Shown: positions 3,324 through 27,684 of the stretch, piece by piece | Position numbering within the stretch: position 1 is the first letter of the stretch | How the letters are laid out: every line of letters begins with the position of its first letter | DNA from: Lingula anatina | Lineage: Eukaryota > Animalia > Brachiopoda | Direction: 5' to 3' | DNA length: 64,000 bases | NCBI GenBank assembly: GCA_051362555.1 | Contig: CM120646.1 | Coordinates: forward strand, 19,034,001-19,098,000 | Translations under genes and position numbers: made by a program | The notes under the pieces: model-generated | Seen by the model: only the letters and a program-made list of their open reading frames with translations | The model's database searches: none | Told to the model about the DNA's origin: nothing

Positions 3324-4381
3324 AGTCAAATGCTTCTCTCTCCCCAGATATTTTTGTTCGTTCTTCTCTTTGTATCAAATTAACCAGTCAGGATTGCAAA
3401 ATATACTGACCCACATTTACTTGTGTGGTATATTAAAATCATGGTTTATTGATTAAATGATGTTATGTCATATTTTATTTAATGGTCTTTTGCAATAGAC
3501 TTGCCATTCAAAATGGAATATTTTGATTTAAAAGGTATGCCTAGGGTAAATAGTATTGTTTTTTAATGTTAAACGATTTAAAACCATTTAGTTGACTACC
3601 TTGTCTGTAGTCCAGAATTACGTTATATGCTATGACTTCATTGAATGGGGTGGTACTCTTTGGGCTGGTCCTGGCATGGCTATGATAGAGCATAGTTTCT
3701 GTTAAAAAGTCTCCATATTTCGGTATCGCCTGCACAGATGATTTTGAAACTTTACACACAAGTACCCAGTTTAACGGTGCGTGAATTGAGCGAAACAGTA
3801 TGTCACAGTATTGTTGCTATGCGCCAGGATGGTGTAAAACAGACAGACACATACAAAGCTAGACAGATTATTGTCTCACAAGAGATGATAGGCAGATGGC
3901 GCTGCAGCCTTACAGAGGTATATAACTGATATTGATACACCTAAGCAGAGAACATGCCCAGGTATCCACAGTTTACCACCAGAAACGGTTTGCTGCTACA
4001 ATTAAAGAAATGCAATCCGTTTCCTTCGAAATGAAGCACAGATTGCTACCAGGAAAAGTTTTTCAAGGATCTTTGCGGACGCTAGACCGGTTTTGGCAGG
4101 TTAATATACCAGACGTCTTAGCTCCCAGAGTACCTTTAGCTTAAAACCTCCACTTCATACACCATAGTGTGATTAAAAAATAAAAAAAAAACTTCCACTA
4201 TAGTCTATATAGTACTATGGTTTACCATATGTAAAATAAGTTGGAACACTCTACTCTCTGATATCAGGGGCTTCTAAAAGAAAATGAAAATTTTAAGTAT
4301 GACTTTGTAACTGACTACTAGCGCACCCTGGTGTTACAAAGTAATAACAGTCAACGCAATGATTAATATAACAGCAGTAAC

Positions 4382-6958: not shown

Positions 6959-7106
6959 TTATACATTGGTTGATAGCCTTGATATGGTCCCCTCGGGGTA
7001 AAGTTCCTCTGGGTAATTCCGAGGATCCATGGAGTGAGGGGGTGGTGGTCTGCCATAGGCAGGGTTTCGGGGGTGGTAATCTGGCTCAAACCCAGAGTCA
7101 TATGAC
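6959..7106 (-). CDS. kirre: Kirre-like last coding exon (RSYDSGFEPDY...GTISRLSTNV*)
   Basis: ttttctag acceptor, phase 2, TAA at 6959-6961; class I PDZ ligand like the Neph/Kirre THV ending. Confidence 0.9.
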
Positions 7107-10100
7107 CTAGAAAATAAATATCCATTTGTTGAAAATTGTACCTATATCATATGAACATGCCCGACAAATAAACATATTTACACGTTATATATATGCACAT
7201 TGTGGTGCAATGTGCATATGTCGGTAGAACCAATAACAAGGCATTAAATTAACATAATTCTGTAGTATTTCTTTACTTTTTGGTTATTCTGTAATTTGTT
7301 AAGCCATCAATCTTCATTATATTATTAATTTTCCCACACAACTTTAGTTATAAATGGATAAAATAAATCAGTTTCATCTAATGGTACTTGGTATAGTGTA
7401 GTCAGTTTAGATAGAATATTAAACTAAGGAAAGATGTAGGTGCTGTTGAAGGCCAAATTCATTCTTATAAACCTCCCTAGGTTGTATAGTCTAAAAACAC
7501 TCCAAACATGTAATCATGTATGGACTTAAATTTCTCTATACACACACATACAGTAATTTCTTCCCTTAGAAGAAACAGCCTTCCACAAGAAAAAGAGCAG
7601 TGTACGATAATGAAACTAATAATGCGCATCTATGATAACTTAAAAAGCTGTACCCCAACCTATCGTAGGGGTGTCCTGCCCCCTTGTCCACATCATCCAG
7701 GTATTTGTATGCTTCAGGATAGGTAGGAGGGAAACCATAGCCATTGGGATACGGCCTGCCATTGGGCTGAAATAATACAGTCATAATATAATTTTTCATC
7801 ATAAAACAGGCATATTTCTAAAATTGAACTACAACTGATTTATCTAAGGAAAAAAAAAAAAACTCTAAGTTTTATAGTTCTAACGAGTAATCAAACAAAG
7901 ATAACAGTCTTCTTTGACTTTACAGCTTCAAGGCTAGAATTCTTTTCAACAGACCCTGATGCCAAATCTCCTAGTCAGTGAAAATTTTAGGCACTATATG
8001 GTTAACACTGCTGATGGCCACTGTGAAGTAATCAAACTTTTACATGTCTTACCTTATAGTTCACATTGAGCTCGTCATACTCTGCTGAATATCTGCTGTA
8101 GTGGTCTTTGTTGTAGTCATTGCGCCAGGGTTCCAGGGGACCGTTGTAGTCTGGGTTCTTGTACTCCACTTTAATTTCTGGCTTCTTTGTGGCTGAGTCA
8201 GCAGAATCAGTATCAGATGTTGACGCTGTGGAGAGAAAGGCAAATGAAGTCTACAACCTTTTTTAACTTTATGTTGTATCTAAATAGGAAATGGTCCTCT
8301 CTTGCAATCTGACAAAAGAATATAGAGATATTTTTGCATACTTTGTTTAGATTTAGATATCTTTAATTTGGTGATCAATGACATCGTCCTACAAGGACTT
8401 TCTTTTATGCTACTAAATATTTATCAACAGTTTCTAAGACTAAATATGGTGCTTATAAATGGAAGCTGGTACCCAGAGACACTTATATGAGTATGGGGGA
8501 AATCTAGATAAGAACTCCAGAAGCAAAGAATTAAAAGAACTTGCCAAAGAAATTAATATTCCTTATAATCCCTTCCACCTGATTCCAAACAAATGCCCAC
8601 ATGGATCAATAAACATTTTTTGTAAAACACAATGACAGAACAATAACACAATGCTTATACCCGAGAGCACCATATCATTTTGATTCCATCAACACAGCAA
8701 GTGCCATTCACAAATAAGGGCACAGTATGCTATATTTCCCCAAATATCTTCTTGTTATTTTACATTCTATCTATGCAAGACAAGAACATTAAACAGGCTA
8801 CAAACAAAGTAACACACAAGCACAGGAACATTATCTTTGGAACTAATACAAACAAAAGGCCAATCAATGCTCTCAGTTTTATCATGTGTTAGTTTTATAT
8901 GCTGTCAACTGTATCCTGCACAGAAATTTACACATGAACTTGTCCATTTCGTGAACTCTGTCATCACAGTGATTTTATTTCTCTTTCAGGAATCCACTTC
9001 AACAAATGTTGTTCACAAGATTAAAAAGCACAACACCAATACAAAATTTCAAAGGCAAAATAAACATCCACCAGGGATAAAATAATTATAAGCAATGGAT
9101 TGGATACAAAGAGTATGCCTAGTTTCTATGCAAATCAAATGTATTAACAAGGCAGCAAAGCTGTCAAATGTACAGACAAAAAACAGGAAATAACTATGCA
9201 CAAAATAGGCTACTGTCAATTCTGATGCAAAAGTACATTATGTTAAACTGCAAATTCAACATCAAATTTTAATTATGCTCAAGCAGCACCCAAAATTGTG
9301 TTTTCTTCTATTCTGATGCAATATTACATAATGGTTAACAGCATAATGACCGTCAATTTTTAATAATAAAATATACATGGATTTTCAGAAAATGTGACTA
9401 GCATGGGTCTTCAAGCCCGTGGAACTTCAAAGTTACACCTTGAAAATGCCAATATGTGAAAAATTAAATTTTCACAAAAAAACTGTTTAACTGGCAGTAA
9501 GAATTACCAAACAGACTGCATTGCCTACTGAAGCTGTATTTTAGTCCCATGTTTCTTTCCTGTAAGTTTGAGAACAGTAAGTGACATGGTTTTTCTTAAA
9601 TGGTCATCATGGGGGCAGTGCCCAAAATAGTTTTTTTTTTTTCAAATTTTGATGCAATATTACATAATGTTTAACAGCATAATGATGAGTATTATGGATA
9701 TTCAGAAAATGTTACTAGCAAAGGTCTTCAGGCCCATGGAACTTCAAAGTCACAACTTGAAAATGCCAAAATGTAAACAAGACAGCACTGTTCTGAATTT
9801 TTTTTTTCCATTTTTAACAATTTTTAACATAAAACAAAATTAACAGTTTACTGCCGTTTTTATATGATCAACTAAAAAAATTGATGAGATGGGAAAAATA
9901 TCAATAGAGCAGTGTTAAATGTCCAATTTCTTCCATTCTGAGATTCTGAACATAGTGAATGTCAATGATTGAATCTGACAAACTGCAATGATATGAGTTT
10001 ATTTCCATTTTTTGAAACTTTATTACACAATACAAGATAACAAGTTTACCATCATTTTTACATATGTTGTAAAGATGCAGGAAATGCCAAACAAACACTT

Positions 10101-13100
10101 TTACTTATCTTACTAATTAAATAATGAAACATGCATGTTAACATGCCTAAGAATTAAATCTGAGGAAATGTGAAAAAACAGCATTTCTTCAAAATAATGG
10201 CCCAATTAAGCTGATTTTTAAACTCAACCTGCGTTTTAGCAGGAATGACCACTCCTGTGAGTTTACTGACAATTGGCCTATCTGTTTTTCTTATTTTGTG
10301 TTTACAGTGTTGCATATATGCTGAAAAGTGAAAAAAAAAAGCATAACTAAAATAGTGGCCCGATCATGCCTATTTTCTAACTTGACCTGCGTTATAGTAA
10401 GATTGATTACTCCTATGAGTTTCATGACAACAGGCCTAACGGTTTTCCTTGAAATGTGTTTACAGTGTTGCATATATGCTGAAAAGTGAAAAAACAGCAT
10501 AAGTTCTACAATAATGGCCCGATCATGCTGATTTTCGGACTTGACCTGCGTTTTATGGATATTCATCAGCTCTGTAAATATACAGCCAAAAAGTAAAACT
10601 GCCTTCCACTTATCGCGTTTACAATGAAAGTGCACGGCGACAGTGACAGTGACAGTGACGGCAACGCCAGCCACGACAGACGCAGGTGATGGCAATATGT
10701 ACAGACACATCTGTACATATTTACTGTACTGTTTGAGAACAGTAAGTGACATGGTTTTTCTTAAATGGTCATCATGGGAGCAGTGCCCAAAATAAGTTTT
10801 TTTCAAATTTTGATGCAATATTACATAATGTTAAACAGCTTAATGACCATCAATTTTTAATAATAAAATATTAGTATCATGGATATTCAGAAAATGTGAC
10901 TAGCAAAGGTCTTCAGGCCCATGGAACTTCAAAGTCACAACTTGAAAATGCCAAAATGTAAACAAGACAGCACTGTTCTGAAATGTTTTTTTTCCATTTT
11001 TAACAATTTTTTTAACATAAACAAAATTAACAGGTTACTGCCATTTTTATACGATCAACTAAGAAAATTGATGAGATGGGAAAAATATCAATACAACAGT
11101 GTTAAATGTCCAATTTCCTCCATCCTGAGATTCTGAACATAGTGAATGATTGCATCTGACAAACTGCAATGATATGAGTTTATTTCCATTTTTGACACTT
11201 TATTACACAATACACGATAACAAGTTTACCATCATTTTTACATAATCAACTAACAATTTTGTTAAGATTCAGGAAATGTCAAACAAACACTTTTATGTAT
11301 CTTATTAGTAAAATAATAAGACTGTTAACATGCCTAAGAATTGAATCTGAGGAAATGTGAAAAAACAGCATAACTTCTAAAGTAATGGCCCGATCATGCC
11401 GATTTTCGAACTTGACCTGCGTTTTAGTAAGATTGATTACTCCTGTGAGTTTCATGACAACAGGCCTAACGGTGTTCCTTAAAATGTGTTTACAGGGTTG
11501 CATATATGCTGAAAAGTGAAAAAACAGCATAAGTTCTACAATAATGGCCCGATCATGCTGATTTTCGAACTTGACCTGCGTTTTATGAATATTCATCAGC
11601 TCTGTAAATATAAAGCCAAAAAGTAAAACTGTCCTCCACTTATCGTGTTTACAAGGAAAGTGCACGGCATCGGCGACGGCATCGGCATCGGCATCGGCAT
11701 CGGCATCGGCGACGGCATCGGCGACGACAGACGCAGGTGATGGCAATATGTACAGACACATCTGTGTCTGTACATAAAAAGCAGAAATCATAATAACAGT
11801 ATTTATGTTTAAGAAAATCACAGGGCTGATAAATTACACTATCAAAGTCTTTAACAGGCACATCCAAAACAGTCTAGCTTAAAATACTCACATTTTAAAA
11901 AATAAATTTCAGCACCCAAGAAGGGTTTCAGAAAACAAAAGAAATCGAAGAAATGTTTTAAATAAGAACAGAGTCTCTTTAAACCAATCTTTACCTTCTA
12001 TTTCAATTGTAGGTATGACTAAAAACATGTACAAAGGCAATATTATATTATTTTAAATCTACCCTTAAATACTTGAAAGTATCATATAATTTACAAAGCA
12101 TTTGTATACAAGTATTAAAGACAAAACAAGAGTCAAAACTTCAAAAATTATAAGCAACATTGGGGCTATATGTATGTAACTTCAAAACCTTACAAAAGAA
12201 AAAGATTGTGCTCTTCAATAAACAGCAGTGCAATATAAATTCAGATATGTCTGTATGTATGCTAAATAAAGGAACACATGCAGTCACTTAACACAGGTGG
12301 ATACAGGGGAAACCCACTACAGATACATTGGGACTTTGAGGTTACGGGGTGAAAGCAGAACGAACCCTCCCACAACCTGATTTTCCTGGATCCACCAGTG
12401 GGTAAATGATAAAATGTCATGATCTTCAAAGTGAGATAGATAAGAGCTATTACCTTCTTCTCTGCTCTTGGTCCTCTGATATATAAAGATGATGATGGCT
12501 ATGATGAGGATTAGTCCCAGTCCACCAAACACACCTCCCATCACAAAAGCAAGGGGGATAGCATCTGGAATGGTGAAATATATACGAATCTATGATATTC
12601 ATAGAGTGGTTATTAATATGGGCACAATATAACCCAAAAGTAATTTCCGTTTGAATTTGTGGACAATAAAAATAATTATCACAATATGAAACTCTTTTGG
12701 GATGTCTTCTTCCTTTTTTCAAGCAACCTAAACATATATCATACAAAGTCTAACAATAGTGTTTTCAGCAGTAAACAAAGTTTTCACACCAGTTAGCTAA
12801 TAATTTTGAAAGAAATGTGTAATAAAAGCAACACAGTGAAGCAGAGACATGTTACAATTCTAAAAAACAACTTTTTTCTTAGTTAATGCCCACTACGGGC
12901 AGCTAAGAACACTCACTAAACAATATTTGTCACAGAAATTTATACCCATACTGATTGCTTCTCTGATGTTAAATAGTTGAGGCAATATTTTCAAAATGTG
13001 TTTTAACAACTGATATTGTTATCTGTATGACAGTTATAATGTCAGAGTAATGTCTGCACAAAGATCTGCACAACTCATGAAGCAGCATTATTCAAACCAG

Positions 13101-16100
13101 TACAATGAGTGCCCAATTTAAGTAACAAAGTGAAAACAACTTTTTTTCTGTGTGACACCGCCTAGTGTTGATTTTAGTGTTAAACTTCATCAACATTAGC
13201 TAAGTATTTCTTTCTTTTCTTTAAAACAGTTTTGAAGTGTTACTGGAAGTGTCATTGTCTAGAATAGTGCACTTTAAAAAAAAACTGACACAATATACCA
13301 CACAATATACCTGTTAAGCAAGCAAAGTCATCTGAAAGGAAGGACACACACACAGTTAAAAAAAAGAAGAATAAAAAGCCAAACACACTATTTACCTCCT
13401 ATACACCAACATGTCTCTGTAACATGCAAACAAAATAAAAGATAGGCTTGGATGATTGAACAAAAAATAAAAAGAAAGAAGCTACACAACATGCTTGTTT
13501 AATATTTGCAGAAAACAATGTCTGTCTTGATTTTCAACCAAAAAGAAAGTAAAATGGGTGACAAAATAGCTAAGATATGGAACACAGAGAAATATTTATA
13601 CTACTGCAACAGACAGAGCTCTAGTCTGTAGAATGTCTTGTCATAGTCTGACCTGCCACCTACCTTTTTGTTTGAGCTTGATAACCAAGGCATCAGTGCC
13701 ATAGGTGTTTTTGACACTGCAGTTGTAGTCTCCATAGTCTCCAGAATGGACATTCACTATGGTTAGTATGCTTTTTCTGCCAGTTGGAAGGTCTTCCTCT
13801 TCTACTTTGTATCTGGGATAGTAATTAGATACGTTTACAGTTTTTATTTCAGAAAATGAACTCAGCTCAACACCACCTGCATGTCTTACTCGATTCTTGT
13901 AATAAAGTCACATTTAGCTGACAACATATCACTTACGGAGGCTGACTGCAATCACAATCACACTTACCTTGCACTGTCTCCAAACTGCAGCAAGTCCTGC
14001 TCCTGCCTGGCCCATCTTATCTGGTCAGGTTTGGGCACTGACTCAGTCAGGCACTCTAATGTGGCTATATCTCCCTCCTTGGCGTATTGCTCTTCATTAC
14101 TGATCACCTTAGGGGGTCCTAAAATATCACACGAGTAGTCGTGATAATAAGACTCATAACATGGGAAATATGAAAAGCAATTAACAAAAAAAATCAAATT
14201 GACATTTTCTGACATGGTGTGCAGCGCACAGACAATATTGGTAATTGATCAGTCACTTCTCTGGTGTCAATCGTTACTTGCCCCCCAAAGTCACTTACAA
14301 TATTTGTCACATCTGAATCAACAAGTAGGCCATTACCTTTACTCTCTTCACATAAGAGCATACATAATTTTGCGTAGTACCTATGCTAATATTCAAGGCA
14401 AATATATCAGCCCTACTTACCTTTCTTCAATAAATGCAATTCCCTATTAATCTCAGAGAATCCAATGACATTAGAGTAACATATATAAATGCCCAGGTCA
14501 CTTTCGGTCACTCTGGAAATGGTCAGTGTGTCCGAGCTGCTGAGGATACGCTGCGACCCCTTTTTCTTCCAGACTACTCGCGGAGTAGGGTTCCCCTTTG
14601 TCTTACAAGTCAGGGTGGCCGTCTCTCCAAGCTGTGCTGCAGCATGTTTGATAGGTACTGTGAACCTGGGGCCATCTGAAAATTAGATGAATGAAACCTT
14701 TATTCAGTTGCCCAGAAAGATCTGACATTATAACATTCAACAGTTGTATCAGTATTGGAGTTTTTATTTAGACTTCTCTGCAGCAAGTTCGACCCGCTGT
14801 GTTCATCCTGGAACCTCTGAACAAATAATTACAGAACCAAGCATCAACTTGACTTTTTTTAAGAAAAGAAAAAAACTGCCATTCTAGCTATAAGTTGGAG
14901 CACTAAGATTGGTATATATACTTACATTCTACAGCCATCTGATAATTTTTCTTGGTGCTTCCAACACTGTTGATGGCTTCACATGTTATAATATTGCCAT
15001 CATGGTCAGCTGTTAGCGAGTCCACTCTAAGATATTTACTGTCAGCATCACCTATCTCCTCATTGTTTCTGTACCATCTGCAAGAGGCCATTATACTTGA
15101 TAATGTACAACGATAAAGCCTGTTGTCATAGATAGAAAATACATCAATGGAATATATAAATCATAGAGAATTAATAAAATAAAATAAAATACACATTCAA
15201 TCAATCAATCTTCCATGTGCCATTGATAACTTACTTCCAGGTGATGTTGTTGGGGTTGCCCCTTCCTTCACATGAAAACTGTATAGATTCTCCTTCTTTT
15301 ACACCTAACTTGGGACTAGCAGTTATTGTGACTTCTGGGGCATCTGGAGAGGTGAACAAAACGATTACTTATTTATAGTATAAGAAAAATAAATGAGCAA
15401 TGATCTTGATTTAATTTAAAAATCAATAAGTAAGCTTTACAGTTTATTATAAAATTAATTTCAGCAGAGAAGAAATTAAAAGAATCTAAAAGAAACACAA
15501 ACTAACAAATTGAATGTAAAAATAACAATATAAAATATTATGCCACATACACACACACCCACACAGTATAGCTGAGTTAGAAAAAAAGCAGTGTTTACAG
15601 AATTTAATATGGTCGCTCCACCATATTTTCCATCTAAATCACACCATTTCCCACAGTAACATATTTTGTCTTTTCTATGTGACACTCTTATGAAATGCTG
15701 CATAGCTTACATAACACTTCCAGACTGGCCGAGGTGGTCAAGGGGTCAGTAAGGAAAGCATTCATAGCCTGGCAGGAGTACCTCTTCCCCTGGTCAGTCT
15801 TGGACGGGGTGATGGTCAGGTAGCTTATTGCATCTTGTCTCTTCCCATCTGCCTGGGTTATTGCTGAAACACAGAAAGTAAAATTGAAAACACATGAGAA
15901 CCATAGAACAACCAGCATAAACACCATTAAGAACATCTTAGCATTCTTTCTTGTGGTTTATATGAACCCTATTTTAATGATTCTGCCAGCTGTCAATTTG
16001 TATTGAGAATTGTGCTAGGTTGTGCTAGTGTAATCTAACAATTGTGTTAGTTGTGACTGTGGCACAATGGACTAGATTATTAATTGTACAACTTCTAAGC

Positions 16101-19100
16101 ACAATCACTTTCACTATTCACATCCATGCACAGGAATACAGGATACATTTCATGTGTTTATGTCATTTCTTATCATCCTATATCTCAGAGCCATAATTAC
16201 ATTGGAATAAATTCCTTCGGGGGAAAAAAGACAAATAATCATAACCCTAAATATCGCTATGACTGAATGCAACAAGGCGTGCGTGCAAACATATGCACCA
16301 AGAATACATACCTTCATAAGAGACATTATCAGTGACTTCTGCGCCTTCTACAAACCACTTCAGCGTGGGAGCTGGCTTGCCGTTGTTTGCTCTACATGTC
16401 AAATTGTAAGGCTGACCCTCCTCTACATTGACTACAGGGCTGCCGTAGATTATAGGGAAATTGGGAGGTACTGAAATTAATAAGAAATATTCCAAAATAT
16501 GATTTATGCAACAATCGGTTTTTATTGGGACCCACTATCAGTAACTACTCATGTTATCAGCAATAAAAACTTTTAAGAGTAAATAAAAAGTGTAAATTTT
16601 TTCACTAAATATTGTTTTGTACTAACTGCAATATTAACATAACTTATCTCAAATGAGGGTTGTATACACAACTAAACTAATATCTAAAATAATTCTAAAT
16701 CAAATATATTCTAACTTTTTTATTTTCACTTCTGTTAAATAATAATATTCTACTCTTCTTTAAAATGTGTTTTTGGAAAAGAAAAAATCTGAGAAACAAA
16801 CAGTCTCTGAAGGTAAATTAGAGAGAAGTAATACTCACAGAGAACTGTTAACAGTACACTTCTACTCCTAAATTCTAGCTTTTATTTTTATTTTCTCTTC
16901 TGTTAAATAATATTCTACTCTTCGTTAAAAAACAATTTTGGAACAGAAAAAAATCTTAGAAACAAATAGTCTCTGAAAGTAAATTAGGGAGAAGTAATAC
17001 TTACAGAGAACTGTTAACTGTGCACTTCTACTCCTGACCCCTGGCGTGGTATGTGTGGCCCCTATCTGACACTGGTATACGTCATCATCCTGGAGTTCTG
17101 CTTCCACTATCATTAGGTCATAGACACCTTGAAAAAAAGAAAACAAAAACATATTGTCATCATCATCAGTCTATTATATCTCTATAAATGTATATGACTT
17201 AGTATTAACTTCATCCCAGTGTCCCAAATTAAGATTATACAACTTCACTGTTTGCAATAATCATCTCTTACAGTAATGAGTCTGCCCTTAACATACCTCA
17301 ACTCTTGAACAATTTTTGACAATTATCACAGTAACAAATCTGTATAAGACTAGCCACAAAAGGTGTATTTCACAATTATGGCAATATCCAGTCAAGAGGG
17401 TTATTAATTTAAGTAAACATTTTCAATGGCATGCCATACTTTTATTAATGTATCCTTCAAAACAAAATAATTTTCATCAACAGTTGATTAAACAGTCACA
17501 AACAATACAATACAAATCGATACAACGAGGAACAGCGAATGATGATACAACAAATACTAGAACTATTTCAGTATTTAAACACTGGAAGAAATGTACAGTC
17601 CCAGCACAATGGGGACCCCAGACGTACTGAGATAGGTTACACACATAATCTGATATTTGAGAAATACATTATACACAGGGTCTGACATACGAGCAAAAAT
17701 AAACACTGATTGTACAAGAATTTCTCTCTCATGCTATTCTAAAGCTGGATAATGCTGATAGACTTGATGGGATATCTTGCAATGGTTCGAGAAAACTATA
17801 AGATTGAAACTGAAGAACAGAATTATATTGAGAATGAAAACAGAAGCCATCGAATAACTGTGTATGGAAAAAGTCTCTCTGTCCCCACAAGAAGTTGACA
17901 CAATGAGCAGTACGTAAAATAAATCATAAGGAACAAGCTGATTATTAAGAATATCATAAAAGTTGCATCTGTCAAAGAAATGGGCTAGTGCCCTGTAGAT
18001 TACTGGGCACATACTACATTTAGAAATAAAAGAACAGCACCAATAAGAGAATAGAATGATAAAACAAAGCCTCTATTAAATGTCTATAAAAGAAAAGAAA
18101 TTAAAGAAAATATGGGTACGATTTGGATTAGGTAGAAAAACAGTCTTGCATTTTAAAAAAAAAAAAAAAATTTCCAAATAAATTCAGATGTTAGGAACCA
18201 TTTTGGTTCACAGATATGGGAAAGTAACCATTTAATTTGGCTGTTTCACAAGGCAGTCAGTATAGTTGGTCAAATAATTCAGATTCAGTTGCTGCTTTCT
18301 GCCTTCTACAATCCATCTTTTGTGAACCGCCATCACCATATATTTTGATAAGAAAATTTCAAAAAAACATCTCATTTTCACTGGGTATCTAGACCCATGC
18401 ACGACAGAGTCAAAAGTCATCATGTATTCTTATCCCAAAAACTGGCAAGTCATATTTTTATGAGGTAAAGTAGCAACTGCGCCTGCCATGGAAATACTCA
18501 CTGTAGGTTCCGTAGGGTCCTGAAGTCAGTGAATGGAAAACGAGCAGTGACATGGACTGACATATGTTTTACAGCTAATAAGGCTGTGAAGACTGTACCT
18601 ACAGTGTATGAGCAGTGGAGAGAAAGTGTGCGTGTTTGACTGGTTACAACTGGTTACTATGGAATTTTGTCTGGAAGCTAGAAGTAATTGTGCTCTTTTG
18701 ACTGTTCAACAGTCAATGTAAGAGAACTTTTCAATCCAAGCAGCATGGAGTATGAATTAAGTGCTTGTCAGGAGTGTTGAATCTGCTGCTTACTTATCTA
18801 AATTTATCTCTTAGATCAATTTACCAAACCAATGAAATAATCTGTGTTTCAGAGACTCCAATGGCACTCTAAATAGACTTATTACTTAATTTTTATTTTT
18901 CAACATCATAAGTTTCAAGGGCAGATATGGAGTATTAAAATATAGTGCAGAGAGTGCTTAAATGTATCAAAAAAAAAAAAAAAACTGAGACATTAAAATC
19001 AACAAACAACATTCACATCAGCTGAGAAAAAAAAGCCAATAAGAAGAAAAAAACTTTGATCCAGTAACTTGTCAGTAACTATTTCAATGCCAGTAAACCA

Positions 19101-20609
19101 AACACATGGAAAAATCTCTCCCATTCTGCTTGTAGAAGGTTAACCTCTAGCGCCCTTAAATAAACTGTTGACTTTATCATCTGCTGCAGTATAACACCTC
19201 TAGTACAAAGAACAATGCCCATAAACTAAAATGCAATATATCTATGAAGCTTGGTGCAGCTGCAACAGCTACAACTGATTCTTGTCGAAAAAAAAGTGCA
19301 AATGCAGTATCACTTCGACAGCAACAAAGTTCAAAGCTCAGTGGGTTTTTTTTGTATGATAAATGCCTAAGTTATGTTGAAAATACTGTACATAGACAGG
19401 CGATGTTTTAAGAATAAATACACTTCATCCCTTCCTGTAGCAAAATGGTTCTCTTTTGCAGTACTAGGTTTGAGATAAGCCTTCAGACAGCTTTTTAAGT
19501 CAGGTGATCTGCCGTGATGGCTCAGTTCGTGGGACAGGAGCTGCGTAACATCTGAACATTGCCTGCGCACTGTCTGAGACTCACATATAAACAGAGTATT
19601 CAAAATACTTGAACTGTCAAGTATCCAGTGCAAGTAAATAAATTTTCAACAAGATTCTTTCAAAAAATATTTGTGGATCTGGAACACAAGGGGACAAAGT
19701 TGTTTTAAAAAATGTCACCCATTGTTATCTGTTCTATTTACATCTCAGCGTAGTTTTTGTAAGTGGACCAAGAAAAATGTTGTTGTTTTTCTTGCAATGG
19801 CAGAGATTATGTGACCTTTGATCACTTTTTTCGTTTGCCCATGAAGATATTTTATGGTAGTGCCCATACATAATTTTTCTGTATGCAAGAGAAAGCAACC
19901 CATTGCAGTTTTTGTGATCTTGTGATGAGCTGAAAGGGGCATCAACATTTGTGTCACATCTAACACATATAATCTGAACATTTGTCCATATAATCCAATA
20001 AAAAACATATAATTACAATTTGTAACCACTACCCACCAGTGTTACACTTACCATTGTTTTCATCTCCCAGCATAGAGTATCTCTCAAACCCTATAAGTGA
20101 GCGGTCAGTGCCCAGTCCAAACCCCCCTCTGGTCCACTGGACTTGCCCCTCTCTGTTCTCCACCTTACATTTCATGATGACTGTATCTCCCTGTTTCACC
20201 TGCTGGTCTTCAGGCTGTACCACAAACCCCTGCTGGCAGTAGACTGAAATAGAGAACATTACCAATATGATTGAAATTACTTATTATTACTTATTACTAA
20301 TTACTTATTATTATTGGCAAAACTTTGCTGGGAAATTAGTCTGAAACAGAGAAAACACACCAATAACAGTTTAAAAACCCATTGTTTTCTGTGACAAATC
20401 TTTCTTGATAACATACTTCAGTGGAGAAAAATGAACCAATAAGCTGAAAAATATTTATTTTGTGAACTTCACAAAATAAAACTTACTGCCTGTTCCATTT
20501 TCAGCTAAAAAGCAACATTTTTTTTAGAAAAAATATTACACAACTTCAAACTATTTTTGTTTATGCTACAGCAAAAACAAATGCAAAATTTAATGCTTTT
20601 ATATAGCTA

Positions 20610-20675
<66 letters not shown>

Positions 20676-23600
20676 TTTATAGGAAGGGTAGATAGAGTGC
20701 TGACATTCGGGTAAAAAAAAGCAAAAGAAAAAATCCTCTTACAGAAACAATCAGTCTGCAGATTTACAGAGTTTACACATCCAAATGACCACTTCTACAA
20801 GTTCAGCATAAATAAACTTTGTAATGTTACCTTGAAAAAGTTCAACTTTGCCTGCTATAAAATGTGTTAATCGGCCACACACATGGGGAACTAAGAGCAA
20901 AGATACTCAGTTAACTTATTTATGAGGAGGAAGCTCCCATCTGGAGAAAAGCAAATCAAAGGAATTGTCTTTTTTCTAGACAAGCTTTAAAAAGTTTATG
21001 AGCAGGATGCGGTAGGTCAATCTTTCTCTTCACATTTTTCAATTTTGTGCATGATATTGAGACAGCCTTTTATAAACCTGATTGGAATCCCCAGCAAGTT
21101 TTGGAGCAATGGAGAGAAGGATGAAAAAGGAGAGCAAAGAAAAATAGAGAAAAATCAATACCCACTGAAGCAGCAAACGTGTTTCCATTATTTCATAATC
21201 AGCGTCATGAACCCACGTTGAATGTATTAACTGTATCGCCCAATACATTGATTGCTTCCTTTCCTAATTTGAACTAGTCAAATCGAAGAGCACCCACTCC
21301 TGTCTCTGAACCACTTCAATACAACATGCTCTCTTATCGAAAAATTAATAAACCATCATCTGTTTATATAAATGGTTCTACAATTCAAATCCAATATCAT
21401 CCCCAAGGCAATGATGAATATTGATTAAGTAATAGTTTTTAAGTGACACGTCTGCCTCCTACTGCTGAAGACTTGTGTAGTGCAATTTCATTGCACATAT
21501 ACGTGTCAACAATTCAAAACCACTGAATTTCAAAAAGAGGGTCTGTACCAATGCTACCTTACTTTTTGTCATATCAAATCCTAAATAAACTTAAAAACCA
21601 TCTTATATTTTCATTTAAAATTTGACACACCTAGATTTTCACTAATTAAACCAATTTTATGTCACCGTAACAGTGATTTTGGCTCTTGATTTTACCTGTT
21701 GATAGACTATACTATCACAGTAATTCTTAAATTAATTTCAGCAAGCGTAGCCAGAGCTACTTCTCTGGTTTTCAAACAGTGAAAAACATGTAAAACACAC
21801 TGACACGTGTAAGGATATATCACTATTTATCCACCCAAGTATATCAAACTGAACTCTTAGCTTATCTACAATGCCTATCTAAATCTGCTGTGCCCTCTGG
21901 CTCTGTTAAGGCAAAACCCTGGGAACCAAGCCACATGGCTCTGTGCTGTGGGCAATGCTGAAGTAGGCAACCCACAGCACAATTTCTCTCTGGCGCAGAT
22001 CAAACACTATTATTGGCACAATGCAAATCTAGCCCTTGAACCAGACATCAGATTCCAATTTTCAAATTTTCCTAGGAGAGAAAACAGTTCTCAGGGTTGC
22101 CAATCTAAGGTCAATGTAGCAATACTATTAAACCTGGTTTTATATAAAAAGAGTCTTAAATTTCTATGAGAAAATTCTGGCTGTGGTTTTGGCATGCTTT
22201 GCAGCAATGTTTTCTTTTAGAAGAGCTACATGTACAGATTAAATATTTCACTGTACATGGATATACCCCCCAAAAAAGAACATGGACATGACTATCTATA
22301 CATTATACAATTAAAAAATAATCACCTACTGGTACATTTAATTGTTCTGACCTAATTTTACCTCTCCAAATCATCCAAACAATCCATTAGTCCCCTAATT
22401 AAAATAAATATGGAGGAGCCTTGTCAGTATTATGACATAAAACATGCTCACATGTCAAAGAGGAGTCATCCCCCTCTCTGTACCATATAACTGTATACAC
22501 ATAGCCACTGCCGCTGATGGTTCTTCATTTGAACTTGATTAATTGAGGTGGACTCATTAAAATATAGCCACACAATGAAATGCTTTAGAAGATAAATGGT
22601 TGGAAGTGATTACAATTTAAGTTAGTTTTACAAAATCACATAAGGAGCAAACATTATTGGAAATACTAATATTTCACTCCTGGTTGAGGTTTGTAATAGG
22701 GAGTACATATTTCATAAAGCAGTATGTACTGGAGGGGTGGGGGGAGGGAGATTTCATGGTAGACCTATAGAAATTGTGGTGAATGATAGAATATACCATT
22801 GGCAACCTGTTGATTACATTGTCTCAGGTGCCACCTGCTGTGATACATATAAAACACAGTCCAAACTGAATTCAGGCCAAGCCAAAACCTTGGGTCAATC
22901 TGTCCAAACATGGAACACATACTTAGGAGGGCCCTCTCTGCAGCATATGTACACATGTCAGACCTTCTCTGTGCTTCACACAGAAACAATAAGGTGGAGT
23001 CATTATATCATCTGGAATATACATGTTCTTGGGAATGTTTTCAAGAAAGTGTTTCTCAGTAAAAGGCCCTTACCGACAATGAGACGGTTCTGAAATTATC
23101 TGAAGTTGAGATATGATTACTGGGTATATAGTTCACTTTTGTGGTTTATGGCCTGTCACCAAATAGACAGACTGAGTGGTAATCTGCTTCAAATTTCATA
23201 AAAAATCTTAACTTGTTCTTCAGTTAAATGGAAGCAGAGTACAAATTCATTACCTTGGTAATATCTTACTATAAAAGGAATCTATACTCCCCCTACTCTG
23301 TACTCTTTGATTCTAAAGATGTACAAGATTTGAAGAGATTTCAGAATTACAAGAACCCCACCTTCTTCAGACTCAAACTGGAGCCAGCTTTCCTTAAGAT
23401 AACATATCCCTGCTTTATTTCATTAAAACATATTAACCTCAACTTATAGCCTCGATAACAATCTACACATCTCTCTTTGTGGATCAGTAAAAGAAATCTT
23501 TAAGCTTCATTTCCTGAACCAGAGTTCTTTCTTCCATCTTGGCCTGTTTTTTATCATGGCGGACCTTTGATGTGGCAGTGGAACAAAGTAATGGCCTGAC

Positions 23601-26600
23601 AATCATGAGCAGGGCAGGAGATTGCCAGTGGTTCTTGTACAAGGTAACCCCTTCAACACTCCAGAGGGGCCTGATATAATATGGACCATTGGCCAGGCAT
23701 GTGTACAGCTCTCAGGTATTCCCTATGAGGAAAAAGCCCCTGGTTTTTATAATCTGAACCATCTGGTTATTGTTCTGTCTTGGCTTTGCAAAGGTGTTCT
23801 TGGCTTGGTTTCGCATGGTGTAGTTTAGCAATATTTGAGTAAAGCATATTATACATGTATGCTTGAAAGGTGCTGTGTGTTTTTCTTTACAGAATAACCT
23901 TTAATGGTTTAGTTTATGAGAAATGGCTTAGAAAATATGTCTTGTTTTCCAGAAATTTTGCTACATCCTTTTTGATTTCTCAGAAATGAATTTGTCATTA
24001 TGGACAGTCTTTTAAATATTTTCTTATTCATTGATTTATTTATTTCTGTCTATGCTAAAGTTTCAAAAATAAGTCTACACAAGCTGGTACTTTAAGTGGC
24101 CCATGTTCTTTATACAGTAAACAGGACCAGTATTATCAGAAAGTGGTAACTTCATTTGGAACATGGTACACAACTGTTTGCGGTGTCTAATCTTATATCA
24201 GACAAGAAGGCGTTCAACATTTTTTTTTGTCTCCAAGACCCCATGTTTAGTTTAACTGTATCATCTCCACTTGTCTGAATTCATCTATCATATTCAGATT
24301 TCATTTTTTTATTTTGGTATATGAACAGAATTATTATAGTAACTGTTATGGTTTGGAACCATGATGTTCTATCATAAATCCATGTATATGTCCAATAAAG
24401 ACAATAAATGGTACAGCAAAGAACTAAATACAGTCACTGATATTTGAAATGGATATCACATGGGTTCAAAGACAGTAAATAAGGCCAATGGAAAAGAGGT
24501 ACAAGGAACAGGATGACTAATTCCAAGGAGTGGAATACCACCACATTTTGTGGAGGCCACAGAACAATGCTATGTGGCACTCATAAAATAGTTTTATTGG
24601 GACAAGATAATGATAAGCTCTGTCCAAATTATTTGGTATCTCCACAGTTGGCCAAACCAGGGAATTCCTCCTTTCTACACATAAATTTCATGGAGAATAC
24701 ATTTATGCACATAACTTTTTATATTTGACAAATAAAATTACATTCAAAACAAAACATAGCACATAGTTATTGCTTTAGATTCATGATTTGATCATAATGT
24801 CTAATTTTTTTAATTGCAGAAAAGTGAAATTGTATTTTAAACAAATCTTGTTAGTTTTTTTTTTTTTACCCTTTACTGTCCAAACATCATTTTCTGTTGT
24901 AAAACATAGTACCATATATCTTTGTCAACTATGCCTCTTTTTTTTAGCTTCACAGACATTGAGTAACAGGCTCCAGAGAGCCCAGATTGTGGTTCCATGG
25001 GTTATGAAGTGGAAGATCTGGTAATTAACCACCCTCCACTGCTGTTATGAATCACTTCAAAGTGCTTGTGGAGTACCAAATTCCACACTACAGGTACTCT
25101 TTTTTTTATAGGCTTCATGTAGGATTAAATAGTGATTTCTAGGCCAGGGTTTTGATACTTATGAATTCCTTGGTGTATACATGCATGCTGGCTGATCTAC
25201 CTATAAAAGACTAATGCAGTTTACTTTGGTTAGGTATTCAACCTGAGATTTTATTCGATTTAACAGAGAGGCAATCTGGGCATTTGAGGACTCTCTAAAT
25301 GTCCTTGCAACTGTTTCACGAAGTTAATACCATAATTGATATTTAATAATCTTTGGGATTCTTGTCATTTAGATAATATTTTTTGATTTGACCACCTCAA
25401 ATACAAGTCTGTAGTAAACTATCCACCAGATACTAAGGGCTTAGCTCAATGAGCCTGGGAAATTTTAGCCTTTTATCAAAGCTGGCCCATCCCTCATGAT
25501 GGCTCCATAATGCCAAACTCCTGAGGTGATGCACTGAAGCTCATTGGTAGATACCACATTACATAATCATCTGATCACTCCTGGTATTTTACACAGGTGC
25601 TGGTGTAATCTCAGTCTGATACTACTGCTGTGTTGGTAAATACTATGCAGGGTTGTGTTCAAAGGTTGGGCACCATGCATTTTACAATACCAGAAGACCA
25701 ACACTGTGTAAAACATACCTTTTGAAACAGTCGCAATAGGCTTACATTAATTTTTCCCCACCTTATAAAAAATGGCCAACAGGATCCATTCAGATGTAAT
25801 AAAATTGCACAAAGAGGGCACCATGAAATAAGTGAATCTTGAGCCATTAATTATTACCAAACTGTTGTGTAATATGCTTAAGAGCAATTCCTGTTAGTAA
25901 TGTGCAAGACTGTCTGTAACAGCTGGTCCATCATTACTGTTGATATACAAGCCACAAGACACCTCCTGGCATGGACACTCATTTATTTTAATTTACTCCA
26001 ATTAAAGACCATCAAAGGCAAAAGCAATACCACTATTAAATAGCATTTATCTAGTAAGGGTAGTATGCTTAACAGAAACAGAATTTAATCAGGAAAAATC
26101 AATCCTTGCAACATTAATTAACTCTATAATGAACTGTTATTCTTTCTTAGAGAAACAATAGACTGGGCCGCTTTTGTTTTCTCCTATAATTAACTTCTGC
26201 ATATAATTCAAATTTCTGTTTATGCTATAATGTTTAATTATCTTCATAATTACGTGGCGATGGGTCCCTGAACACTGAGTTATGTTTGTGCTCTTGGTTA
26301 TTTTGATGTGCTGGGTACTCTGGTATGCCAAATTGATAAATATAACAACTTAGGAAAGAATGACCAGAGGCTACAAGGTGATTTACTTATATATTAGCTT
26401 TCCTTGTAAATCAATTAATTTGTGGCATATGGTACCCATTGGTTTTTACTGTTTTTTGTGAACTAAACAAGAAATTGTTACGTTACGTATAAAAAACTTG
26501 ACTTAAACACTTTTGCAATTTGATTTTGATACAAATTTAGCAAAAACAGCCAATTTTCTACACAGATTCCTTTAATTTAGAAGGAGACACTAAAAGATGG

Positions 26601-27684
26601 AAACCCTTTTACTGTTTACAACACAGCTAGGGTGGAGTGACTCAAATAGGTGATTCAACAATCCCTCTGTATACAGACCACCCCCTATCTGCAACTTCCA
26701 CTAATTAGCTCCTAGCCCACTCAGTATTAAAAGCTCTGTTGGAAATCTATACTGACCATCATGGTTCATCAGCCACTGACCACTATCTACTATTTACAAT
26801 ATAAACAGATGCTCGTTTTCCCTGCTACATCCCCCTAGGTAAGTAAACCATGCATTTTCTATATCCCATGGATAGGCAAGATCTTCTGTTGGCGATCCAT
26901 GTCTTGGGGACCAAATACATATCAATTAAGTAAGTATCAGATTGATAAATACGCTGTGATAACATGGGCGATAACATGGGCGTGCACACTTCATCAACCC
27001 CACAGTGATGTCTGATTTTGTAATCAACTCATTAAAATTTAGCTGTCTCTCTGAATTCAGTGTTTTATGATGAAAAGGTTAACATGCTGATTGATTTTGT
27101 TTGTTAGTAGGAAATCAAATAAGAGCTATGCTTTGAAAATTCAAAACTGTCTTTTTATCAGTTGTGATTACAATAATGTCATAACCTTGGAGATCGTAAC
27201 ATTTTCAGATTTATCATGGAAACAGTTGGAGGGGGGGTCAGCCTTTATTCTACACCATGAATTTATTTTCATATCAAATATAAAGTTCAAGTAGCTATAT
27301 AAACCTTAATAAATACCTATAAATCTATATCTATCCATCTACTAATCAGCTACTGCTAATACATTTCTATCCATCCATATCAAGCTACCTATCTATTCAC
27401 AGACAGCCAGGGCATTATCACAATGCAGGCTTCTCTTTCTTAATATCCACTAGGATTGCACAAACCGGGGAAGTAAAATTGAAGAAGTGAAGGTTGGGGT
27501 ATAGAGTGATATATAATATTAAATATAATATAATATTACTATATTATATTTATTATTATATATTATATAATATTACTATAGATAGTATTACTCTCCAGTA
27601 TTACTCACCTGTACCCGCAAGGGCTAACCCTGTCAATAAGTGTAACAGTTTCCTTAAGATGGCCTTCTCCATGTTGTATTGCAT
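6959..27684 (-). CDS. kirre: Kirre/Neph (KIRREL, Roughest/IrreC, SYG-1)-like Ig cell adhesion molecule; 14 constitutive coding exons, 685 aa
   Basis: Exons join in frame through GT-AG introns (2058 nt in total). Ig1 QWTRGGFGLGTDRSLIGFERYSMLG...LQDDDVYQCQ is diagnostic of Kirre/Neph. Five Ig domains, no FN3 (so not nephrin/Sns), one TM and a C-terminal STNV PDZ-binding motif. Confidence 0.92.
7660..7766 (-). CDS. kirre: Kirre-like exon: cytoplasmic (PNGRPYPNGYGFPPTYPEAYKYLDDVDKGAGHPYD)
   Basis: 107 nt, phase 0-2, tatttcag / AG|gttggg. Confidence 0.85.
8053..8225 (-). CDS. kirre: Kirre-like exon: cytoplasmic (ASTSDTDSADSATKKPEIKVEYKNPDY...EYDELNVNYK)
   Basis: 173 nt, phase 1-0, ctctccacag / gtaaga; frame differs from the ORF-track call. 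Confidence 0.88.
9146..11775 (-). mobile_element. Non-autonomous Helentron/HINE (DINE-1/pearl-like) element with an internal ~1.1-kb tandem duplication
   Basis: Ends are aacaaGGCAGCaaaGCTGTC (stem-loop) + ATGTACAGACA and ATGTACAGACACatctGTGTCTGTACAT + A-run. It also has a hexamer microsatellite and ~160-bp internal repeats. Same family as 41593-43806. Confidence 0.8.
11995..12018 (-). CDS. kirre: Candidate 24-nt cytoplasmic microexon (VIPTIEIE)
   Basis: ttgcctttgtacatgtttttag|TCATACCTACAATTGAAATAGAAG|gtaaag; phase 1-1. Confidence 0.5.
12454..12564 (-). CDS. kirre: Kirre-like exon: transmembrane (DAIPLAFVMGGVFGGLGLILIIAIIIFIYQRTKSREE)
   Basis: 111 nt, phase 1-1, attccag / gtaata. Confidence 0.93.
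13311..13331 (-). CDS. kirre: Candidate 21-nt stalk microexon B (DDFACLT)
   Basis: gtccttcctttcag|ATGACTTTGCTTGCTTAACAG|gtatat; phase 1-1. Confidence 0.6.
13396..13416 (-). CDS. kirre: Candidate 21-nt stalk microexon A (ETCWCIG)
   Basis: ttttattttgtttgcatgttacag|AGACATGTTGGTGTATAGGAG|gtaaat; phase 1-1. Confidence 0.6.
13664..13812 (-). CDS. kirre: Kirre-like exon: Ig5 C-half (RYKVEEEDLPTGRKSILTI...DYGDYNCSVKNTYGTD...KQK)
   Basis: 149 nt, phase 2-1, tcccag / gtaggt. Confidence 0.95.
13968..14118 (-). CDS. kirre: Kirre-like exon: Ig5 N-half (GPPKVISNEEQY...LECLTESVPKPDQIRW)
   Basis: 151 nt, phase 1-2, attttag / gtaagt. Confidence 0.95.
14421..14675 (-). CDS. kirre: Kirre-like exon: Ig4 (YGPRFTVPIK...LTCKTKGNPTPRVVW...DLGIYIC...LLKK)
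   Basis: 255 nt open frame, phase 1-1, ttttcag / gtaagt. Confidence 0.95.
14926..15077 (-). CDS. kirre: Kirre-like exon: Ig3 C-half (KWYRNNEEIG...ITCEAINSVG...MAVE)
   Basis: 152 nt, phase 2-1, ttgcag / gtaagt. Confidence 0.95.
15235..15343 (-). CDS. kirre: Kirre-like exon: Ig3 N-half (YAPEVTITASPKLGVKEGESIQFSCEGRGNPNNITW)
   Basis: 109 nt, phase 1-2; absent from the ORF track, translated by hand. Confidence 0.93.
15711..15863 (-). CDS. kirre: Kirre-like exon: Ig2 C-half (AITQADGKRQ...YSCQAMN...SLEVL)
   Basis: 153 nt, phase 1-1, gtttcag / gtaagc. Confidence 0.95.
16312..16470 (-). CDS. kirre: Kirre-like exon: Ig2 N-half (LPPNFPIIYG...NLTCRANNGKPAPTLKW)
   Basis: 159 nt, phase 1-1, atttcag / gtatgt. 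Confidence 0.95.
16711..17036. repeat. ~166-bp tandem duplication including the 3' end and donor site of the Ig1 C-half exon
   Basis: 16731-16869 aligns with 16897-17035 (gagaagtaatact[c/t]acagagaactgttaac). Confidence 0.85.
17005..17127 (-). CDS. kirre: Kirre-like exon: Ig1 C-half (GVYDLMIVEAELQDDDVYQCQ...LTVL)
   Basis: 123 nt, phase 1-1, poly-pyrimidine acceptor, gtaagt donor. Confidence 0.95.
18502..18519 (-). CDS. kirre: Candidate 18-nt alternative microexon in Ig1 (GPYGTY)
   Basis: ttttccattcactgacttcag|GACCCTACGGAACCTACA|gtgagtat; phase 1-1, no stop. Confidence 0.55.
19450..19610 (-). mobile_element. Possible degenerate LINE (L2/CR1) 3' fragment
   Basis: Translation SPDLKSCLKAYL resembles the ORF2 C-terminal FKxxLKTxLF motif. 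Confidence 0.3.
20052..20243 (-). CDS. kirre: Kirre-like exon: Ig1 N-half (VYCQQGFVVQPED...MLGDENN)
   Basis: atttcag acceptor, gtaagt donor, 192 nt, phase 1-1. Confidence 0.95.
20614..20674. repeat. (TA)n microsatellite
   Basis: Perfect TA run. Confidence 0.97.
27609..27684 (-). CDS. kirre: Kirre-like coding exon 1: signal peptide MQYNMEKAILRKLLHLLTGLALAGT (whole exon 27609-27765)
   Basis: Acceptor poly-T-cag at 27766, phase-1 donor CAG|gtgagt, in-frame upstream TGA; joins to VYCQQG. Confidence 0.85.

What the first reader, a model, noticed from the sequence alone, without database searches (positions are those of the whole stretch)
11995..18519. Possible combinatorial microexon code in a cell-recognition IgCAM
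Seen: four well-flanked candidates (18, 21, 21, 24 nt). All are multiples of 3, stop-free and phase 1-1, and they fall in three functional regions: the ligand-binding Ig1, the stalk and the cytoplasmic tail. Three have UGC motifs near the acceptor. Established: neural microexons of 27 nt or less are driven by SRRM3/4 (eMIC domain) binding such UGC motifs, and Ig-domain mini-exons set partner choice in LAR-RPTPs. Inference: 2 x 3 x 2 = 12 potential isoforms tuning binding, oligomer state and signalling independently.
Basis: partly seen in the sequence, partly recalled or inferred. Interest (0 to 1): 0.72.

Follow-up and report, generated by a model that had tools for sequence, protein, structure and literature searches.

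The report
Brachiopod Kirrel with optional tiny exons
This is the Kirrel cell-recognition gene of a brachiopod: one of the four proposed tiny exons is a real, already annotated optional exon, a second is likely real because a ribbon worm has optional exons at the same spot, and the other two were skipped in the RNA tested, so the proposed twelve-isoform code is unshown and would resemble the modular splicing known from mouse Kirrel3.

Summary
The minus-strand gene is the Lingula anatina KIRREL/SYG-1 orthologue. All four candidates exist as described.

D (24 nt, cytoplasmic) is real: RefSeq isoforms X1 and X3 include it, X2 skips it.

A (18 nt, Ig1) and B/C (21 nt, stalk) are unannotated. Four RNA runs listed only skipping joints: 20 reads across A, 29 across B/C. 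Those runs also skip D, so this is weak evidence against.

A is the top in-frame candidate in its intron. The nemertean Lineus has two alternative 8-residue inserts at the same position, apparently in the same phase. B and C top their intron and place a Cys in the same register; arthropods have Cys-bearing optional stalk inserts, but with no sequence similarity.

A crude splice-site null does not single the four out (8 in-frame, 8 not, at or above D's score), and UGC is near background. A lies in the D-E loop, outside the published trans interface. Independent use and eMIC control are untested. Mouse Kirrel3 already shows independent optional segments on both sides of the membrane.

Verdict: new member of a known kind; the 12-isoform code is unshown.

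The parts
6959..27684 (-). KIRREL/SYG-1 orthologue, coding span: 14 constitutive coding exons (27684-27609, 20243-20052, 17127-17005, 16470-16312, 15863-15711, 15343-15235, 15077-14926, 14675-14421, 14118-13968, 13812-13664, 12564-12454, 8225-8053, 7766-7654, 7106-6959)
   Evidence: Spliced translation equals XP_013380216 (with D) and XP_013380224 (without D) except 3 signal-peptide residues; eight introns between 12564 and 20052 seen as RNA joints; five Ig stretches
18502..18519 (-). Candidate A, 18-nt exon in the Ig1 D-E loop (GPYGTY); likely real, not seen included
   Evidence: Top in-frame candidate among 224 pairs in its intron, second overall; Lineus has alternative inserts at this site; 20 skipping joints and zero depth in its bin in 4 runs
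13396..13416 (-). Candidate B, 21-nt stalk exon (ETCWCIG, two Cys); unproven
   Evidence: Rank 1 of 125 pairs in its intron; 29 skipping joints; 0.15 depth in the B/C bin in run X9 only, inconclusive
13311..13331 (-). Candidate C, 21-nt stalk exon (DDFACLT, one Cys in the same register as B's second Cys); unproven
   Evidence: Rank 2 of 125 in its intron; 64 nt from B, branch-point-like TTAAC at -28; skipped in the listed joints
11995..12018 (-). Exon D, 24-nt alternative cytoplasmic microexon (VIPTIEIE); real
   Evidence: In RefSeq X1 and X3, absent from X2; skipped by all or nearly all of 30 loose-end reads in 4 runs
8193..8225 (-).
   Evidence: Loose-end consensus of 10 reads in X7 is explained at 29 of 30 letters as a mix of acceptors 8225 and 8192; expected agreement 0.65, observed 0.66
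12454..12564 (-). Transmembrane exon, flanked by the phase-1 introns that hold B/C and D

Best explanation
This is a brachiopod KIRREL gene with one shown optional microexon in the cytoplasmic tail (D), a likely tissue-restricted microexon in the Ig1 D-E loop (A), and an unproven pair of Cys-bearing stalk candidates (B, C) that would likely be mutually exclusive. Shown: the gene, D, and predominant skipping of all four in the sampled RNA. Inferred: short in-frame cassettes arise repeatedly in the same three phase-1 introns of KIRREL genes because these map to a surface loop, the stalk and a disordered tail. A would remodel the Ig1 face opposite the D1-D1 trans interface and so tune a secondary or cis contact, not the core nephrin or homophilic binding. 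B or C would add a membrane-proximal unpaired Cys that could form covalent cis dimers. D and the alternative acceptor at 8192 would change short motifs in the tail. A few co-regulated isoforms are more likely than 12 independent ones.
For: D: RefSeq X1 and X3 include it, X2 skips it. A: 4 of 5 L. longissimus isoforms carry one of two 8-residue inserts at the same position, with boundary residues fitting phase 1, and 1 skips. Bivalve and gastropod loops are 2-7 residues longer there. A's peptide ranks 1 of 199 in-frame pseudo-exon peptides against the main Lineus insert at my first setting. The insert lies between strands D and E in the model and in alignments to 4OF8 and 4OFD, while the Kirrel interface passage names the post-C-strand region, the CD loop and strands F and G. 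B/C: ranks 1 and 2 in a 1.1-kb intron, and the next four pairs reuse their sites; same length, Cys at position 5 in both. Optional Cys-bearing stalk inserts are annotated in horseshoe crabs and two decapods, and Panulirus has all four stalk x tail combinations. The runs that skip A-C also skip the proven D.
Against: No inclusion joint for A, B or C was listed in 4 runs (20 and 29 skipping joints, plus 6 and 4 loose-end reads that also skip), and none is in the 3 RefSeq proteins. The A-Lineus likeness depends on settings: rank 1-73 of 199 and 1-7 of 21 over 40 settings. B and C show no significant likeness to any of six homologous stalk inserts (shuffle p 0.14-0.89); B against C reaches only the top 6% of 775 pairs, and 12 of 40 random 21-nt open frames hold a Cys. 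The two other brachiopod sequences lack an Ig1 insert (one sequence each). Non-3n pseudo-exons score as well. Mouse Kirrel3 exon 18 did not detectably change adhesion. All functional steps are untested.
Confidence: 0.55

Rival explanations
1. Only D is an exon; A, B and C are chance pseudo-exons picked because they are in frame, and the inserts in other phyla arose independently in introns that tolerate them.
For: No listed inclusion reads in 4 runs; absent from RefSeq isoforms; 8 non-3n acceptors score as well as D; UGC near background; no robust sequence conservation.
Against: The best in-frame candidate in the Ig1 intron is also among the closest matches to the Lineus insert (rank 1-2 of 21 in most low-gap settings). 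Two equal-length top-scoring candidates 64 nt apart with a shared Cys register is an odd chance pattern. The runs are shallow (50-158 reads laid each) and also skip D.
Confidence: 0.3
2. One reading: all four are neural, eMIC-driven microexons used independently, giving 12 isoforms that separately tune ligand choice, oligomer state and signalling.
For: All combinations are stop-free. Neural microexons and the eMIC domain are reported as ancestral to bilaterians (PMC8797185). LAR-RPTP meA also sits in an Ig D-E loop (PMC4239663). Panulirus annotates 2 x 2 combinations; Lineus has three states in Ig1 and two in the tail.
Against: Three of four exons were not observed. UGC is not enriched beyond chance and AG-exclusion zones (28-54 nt) fall within the constitutive range of 16-71. 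One master regulator would tend to switch exons together (inference). D is in the main RefSeq isoform, which does not suggest a rare neural exon. A is off the canonical interface.
Confidence: 0.1

Closest known systems
Mouse/human Kirrel3 modular splicing (Traenkner et al. 2023, PMC10698715; abstract, sections 19, 21, 24 and passages read)
   Same: Same gene family; independently spliced in-frame segments just outside (exon 18) and just inside (19b) the membrane; truncated-tail forms.
   Different: The mammalian segments are dated to placental mammals, so they are not homologous to these. No optional Ig1 D-E loop exon appears in the sections read. 19b is a 25-residue exon extension, not a microexon. 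The mouse evidence is long-read; here only D is shown.
LAR-RPTP mini-exons meA/meB (Coles et al. 2014, PMC4239663, passages; Yamagata et al. 2015, PMC4423211, search listing only)
   Same: meA inserts in an Ig betaD-betaE loop, the topological position of candidate A; in both cases the loop lies away from one main ligand face.
   Different: Different family and domain (Ig2 of a phosphatase). Splice-dependent ligand choice is shown for RPTPs and untested here.
Annotated KIRREL isoforms of Lineus longissimus, Panulirus ornatus, Cherax, Limulus/Tachypleus (RefSeq)
   Same: Optional short inserts at the same Ig1, stalk and juxtamembrane positions; arthropod stalk inserts carry Cys.
   Different: Sequences are not conserved with B, C or D and only loosely with A. 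Their exon borders are inferred from proteins, not from DNA.
Neural SRRM3/4-eMIC microexon programme (Torres-Mendez et al. 2022, PMC8797185, passages)
   Same: Size of 27 nt or less, frame-preserving, UGC upstream in 3 of 4.
   Different: Neural enrichment and eMIC dependence are untested; the cis features do not exceed background here.

Membership tests
KIRREL/Neph/SYG-1/Rst | Five extracellular Ig domains | tested here: met
   Five Ig_3/I-set stretches; family definition from PMC10084454 passage
KIRREL/Neph/SYG-1/Rst | Single transmembrane helix, unfolded tail, C-terminal PDZ-binding motif | tested here: met
   Hydrophobic segment and T-x-V end in P0002; T and V nearly invariant in 32 homologues; helix 542-571 and low-confidence tail in the Lineus model
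KIRREL/Neph/SYG-1/Rst | Closest relatives are KIRREL/Rst proteins | tested here: met
   Named top hits among 67 are kirrel or roughest proteins; best PDB matches of the Lineus orthologue are Rst 4OF8 and Neph1 4OFD; no tree built
KIRREL/Neph/SYG-1/Rst | D1-mediated homophilic or nephrin binding | not testable with these tools
   Needs binding assays
Neural eMIC microexons | 3-27 nt and frame-preserving | tested here: met
   18, 21, 21, 24 nt, stop-free
Neural eMIC microexons | Actually spliced into mRNA | tested here: inconclusive
   D yes by annotation; A, B, C not listed in 4 shallow runs of unknown tissue that also skip D
Neural eMIC microexons | UGC close to the acceptor and long AG-exclusion zone above background | tested here: inconclusive
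   3 of 4 within 30 nt against 29% background, 1 of 4 within 20 nt; AG-free zones within the constitutive range
Neural eMIC microexons | Neural-enriched, Srrm234/eMIC-dependent inclusion | not testable with these tools
   Run tissues are coded; no perturbation data; an eMIC domain in this species was not searched
LAR-RPTP-type splice-insert code | Insert lies in the known ligand interface | tested here: not met
   A maps to the D-E loop; the reported Kirrel interface is post-C strand, CD loop, F and G. meA is also a D-E insert, so an effect on another ligand stays possible
LAR-RPTP-type splice-insert code | Independent combinatorial inclusion that changes partner choice | not testable with these tools
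   Short reads cannot phase A with B/C/D; no binding data

The most novel reading that the evidence does not exclude
Lophotrochozoan KIRRELs carry an undescribed Ig1 D-E loop microexon switch (three states in Lineus, two in Lingula, frozen as a longer loop in bivalves and snails) that works like LAR-RPTP meA, combined in Lingula with a mutually exclusive pair of Cys-bearing stalk microexons that set covalent cis-dimer state and a tail microexon. A single-copy recognition gene would thereby encode several binding identities, as vertebrates do with three paralogues.
Probability: 0.15. Interest if true: 0.68.

Novelty: new member of a known kind. Interest (0 to 1): 0.38.

Why it matters
KIRRELs act in synapse targeting, myoblast fusion and filtration, and most invertebrates have few copies. 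If A, B and C are real, splicing could let one gene serve several of these roles. The recurrence of optional inserts at the same three positions in brachiopod, nemertean, arthropod and mammalian KIRRELs, without sequence conservation, would be a clean case of repeated exon birth at fixed sites. I found no paper on the Ig1-loop site (searches; open-licence library only; supplements not read). As it stands, the proven part (D) is already in RefSeq and the modular idea is published for Kirrel3.

Tried and rejected
No whole genome is held for this window, so the splice-site model had only 13 + 13 training sites and no genome-wide null. The first read mapping (X1, X4, X7, X2) was swamped by an intronic repeat and listed no gene joints; only X7, X9, X5 and X3 gave junction data, 4 of 9 listed runs, with about 6-30% of each read. 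No indexed RNA holder was listed; this is not used as evidence. A search for short protein fragments with the inserts found none at E <= 1e-10 among 2017 candidates. The X9 trace in the B/C bin (42-45 letters) fits one or two exon-including reads but also an intronic fragment, so it is not counted. X9's 0.91 agreement at 12454 fits one D-including read or one alternative-acceptor read, so it is not counted. Homology of B+C to the horseshoe-crab stalk insert was rejected (shuffle p 0.14). A second Ig1 microexon like Lineus's was looked for; no convincing in-frame candidate besides A. The joint 13809-13965 is read as an alignment shift near SNPs (same length as 13812-13968). Earlier scan findings: none returned. 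Genomic DNA of Lineus and the arthropods could not be fetched, so their exon status is inferred from isoform proteins. No complex prediction was run.
Full report
The gene. The region holds a minus-strand Ig gene. One exon matched a protein named KIRREL1-like of Lingula anatina at 100%. Its cluster has three members: X1 (695 aa), X2 (687) and X3 (647). Fourteen constitutive coding exons from 27684 to 6959 translate to X2, and to X1 when D is added, except for three signal-peptide residues. It has five Ig stretches, a transmembrane segment and a T-x-V end, which meets the family definition (PMC10084454, passages).

The observation. All four candidates exist with AG/GT flanks: A 18519-18502, B 13416-13396, C 13331-13311, D 12018-11995. 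All 16 combinations tried are stop-free. Phase 1-1 is weak evidence, since 9 of 13 introns are phase 1. TGC lies at -27, -12 and -21 for A, B and D; 29% of intronic AGs have one within 30 nt, so 3 of 4 has P about 0.08.

The null test. A matrix trained on the gene's own 13 acceptors and 13 donors ranks the four 4, 8, 11 and 25 of 1725 pairs. Nineteen acceptors score at or above D; dropping 3 copies inside the intronic repeat leaves 16, of which 8 are 3n and 8 are not. The test is weak, because the proven exon D scores lowest of the four. Within their own introns, B and C rank 1 and 2 of 125, A ranks 2 of 224 (first in frame) and D ranks 4 of 329 behind three repeat copies.

Annotation and RNA. 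D is in X1 and X3 and absent from X2, so it is a real cassette exon that is already annotated. A, B and C are in none of the three. Nine RNA runs were listed. The first mapping was swamped by a repeat. The second, on four runs with 50-158 reads laid each, gave 20 joints skipping A and 29 skipping B and C, with 6 and 4 further loose-end reads of the skipped form. No inclusion joint was listed (threshold 3 reads per run) and A's bin had zero depth. A trace of 42-45 letters in the B/C bin of X9 is inconclusive. The 30 loose-end reads after the transmembrane exon have consensuses that skip D. These libraries therefore miss a proven exon, their tissues are unknown, and the absence of A-C is only weak evidence. 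In X7 the consensus is best read as an even mix of acceptor 8225 and an alternative acceptor at 8192, which would delete 11 residues (29 of 30 letters explained; agreement 0.65 expected, 0.66 seen).

Homologues. I aligned 128 proteins of 400 residues or more and compared isoforms within clusters. At the A site, Lineus longissimus has three states: insert EPGTLYESW (3 of 5 isoforms), insert GDFPGRDIW (1) and skipped (1); the boundary residues fit phase 1, as in Lingula. Bivalves and gastropods have a loop 2-7 residues longer with no variation among the isoforms seen. Cephalopods, two other brachiopods, a phoronid, arthropods and vertebrates have the short loop. A's peptide was the best match to the main Lineus insert among 199 in-frame pseudo-exon peptides at my first setting, but ranked 1-73 over 40 settings, so this is suggestive only. 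At the stalk site, horseshoe crabs have an optional 17-residue insert with two Cys and Panulirus and Cherax a 15-residue insert with one; Terebratalia has 9 extra residues without Cys. None resembles B or C beyond shuffles (p 0.14-0.89). B and C have equal length, Cys at position 5 and lie 64 nt apart, with a branch-point-like motif about 39 nt from B's donor; from recalled knowledge of steric exclusion, this would favour one or the other. At the D site, Lineus (6 aa), Panulirus (5), Macrobrachium and Centruroides have optional inserts, and Panulirus annotates all four stalk x tail combinations.

Structure. In a model of the Lineus protein (mean pLDDT 74.5) the insert lies in a lower-confidence loop between strands D and E (strand letters assigned by me from Ig topology), matching alignments to Rst and Neph1. 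The Kirrel dimer interface is reported at the post-C-strand region, the CD loop and strands F and G (bioRxiv 10.1101/2021.03.09.434456, passages). A would therefore not sit in the core trans interface. LAR-RPTP meA also inserts in a D-E loop, opposite the TrkC face (PMC4239663, passages), so an effect on a secondary partner remains possible.

Prior art. Mouse Kirrel3 has four independently spliced segments, two flanking the membrane, dated to placental mammals; exon 18 did not detectably change homophilic adhesion (PMC10698715, abstract and sections 19, 21, 24). eMIC microexons are reported as a bilaterian trait with little target conservation across phyla (PMC8797185, passages). In brachiopods the ultrafiltration genes including kirrel were not seen in larval nephridia and are broadly expressed in juveniles (10.1101/2020.11.15.378034, passages). 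Searches for microexon with Lingula, with syg-1, and with SRRM plus lophotrochozo returned no papers; searches listed none on invertebrate Kirrel microexons by title or abstract start. Supplements were not read and could list such exons.

Verdict. My odds: D real 0.97; A real about 0.6; at least one of B/C real about 0.45; an independent 12-isoform eMIC code about 0.1. The system works like Kirrel3 modular splicing; it is a member of the KIRREL family; membership of the eMIC microexon class is open. New member of a known kind, interest 0.38. The cross-phylum recurrence of optional inserts at three fixed sites, and the Ig1 D-E loop switch in Lineus, are the leads worth following.

Noticed in passing
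window 8192 (minus): Likely alternative acceptor 33 nt into the second tail exon, used by about half of 10 reads in run X7; it would delete an acidic Ser/Thr patch that resembles patches in other lophotrochozoan KIRRELs.
   Followed up: partly
window 12142-12453 (minus): Intronic reads just after the transmembrane exon in X9 and X5, while most other intron bins are empty. Read-through would give a 45-residue tail without the PDZ motif, like Kirrel3 exon 20b. No AATAAA or ATTAAA in 11850-12453.
   Followed up: partly
window 9144-11784: Duplicated repeat element with 158-159 nt tandem units and a CGGCAT array inside the intron that holds D; very high RNA depth, probably from other genomic copies; contains three high-scoring 15-nt pseudo-exons.
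   Followed up: partly
window 16717-17035: 166-nt tandem duplication that copies the 3' end and donor of the exon ending at 17005, giving a spare donor near 16839; the listed joints use only 17005.
   Followed up: partly
window 2280-3374 (minus): Single-frame FkbM-domain methyltransferase gene downstream of the Kirrel gene.
   Followed up: partly
window 7654-7660 (minus): Two in-frame donors 6 nt apart at the penultimate coding exon; RefSeq uses 7654, which has the weakest donor score in the gene.
   Followed up: no
P0072, P0070, P0073 (Lineus longissimus): Two alternative 8-residue inserts plus a skipped form in the Ig1 D-E loop, annotated in RefSeq; no paper found in my searches.
   Followed up: partly
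P0106 / P0048 (Ostrea edulis): An annotated isoform lacks the whole transmembrane exon in frame, which would give a secreted form.
   Followed up: no
window 27609-27684: The signal-peptide exon differs from the RefSeq protein at 3 residues, so the window is a different haplotype or assembly; D is unchanged at protein level.
   Followed up: no
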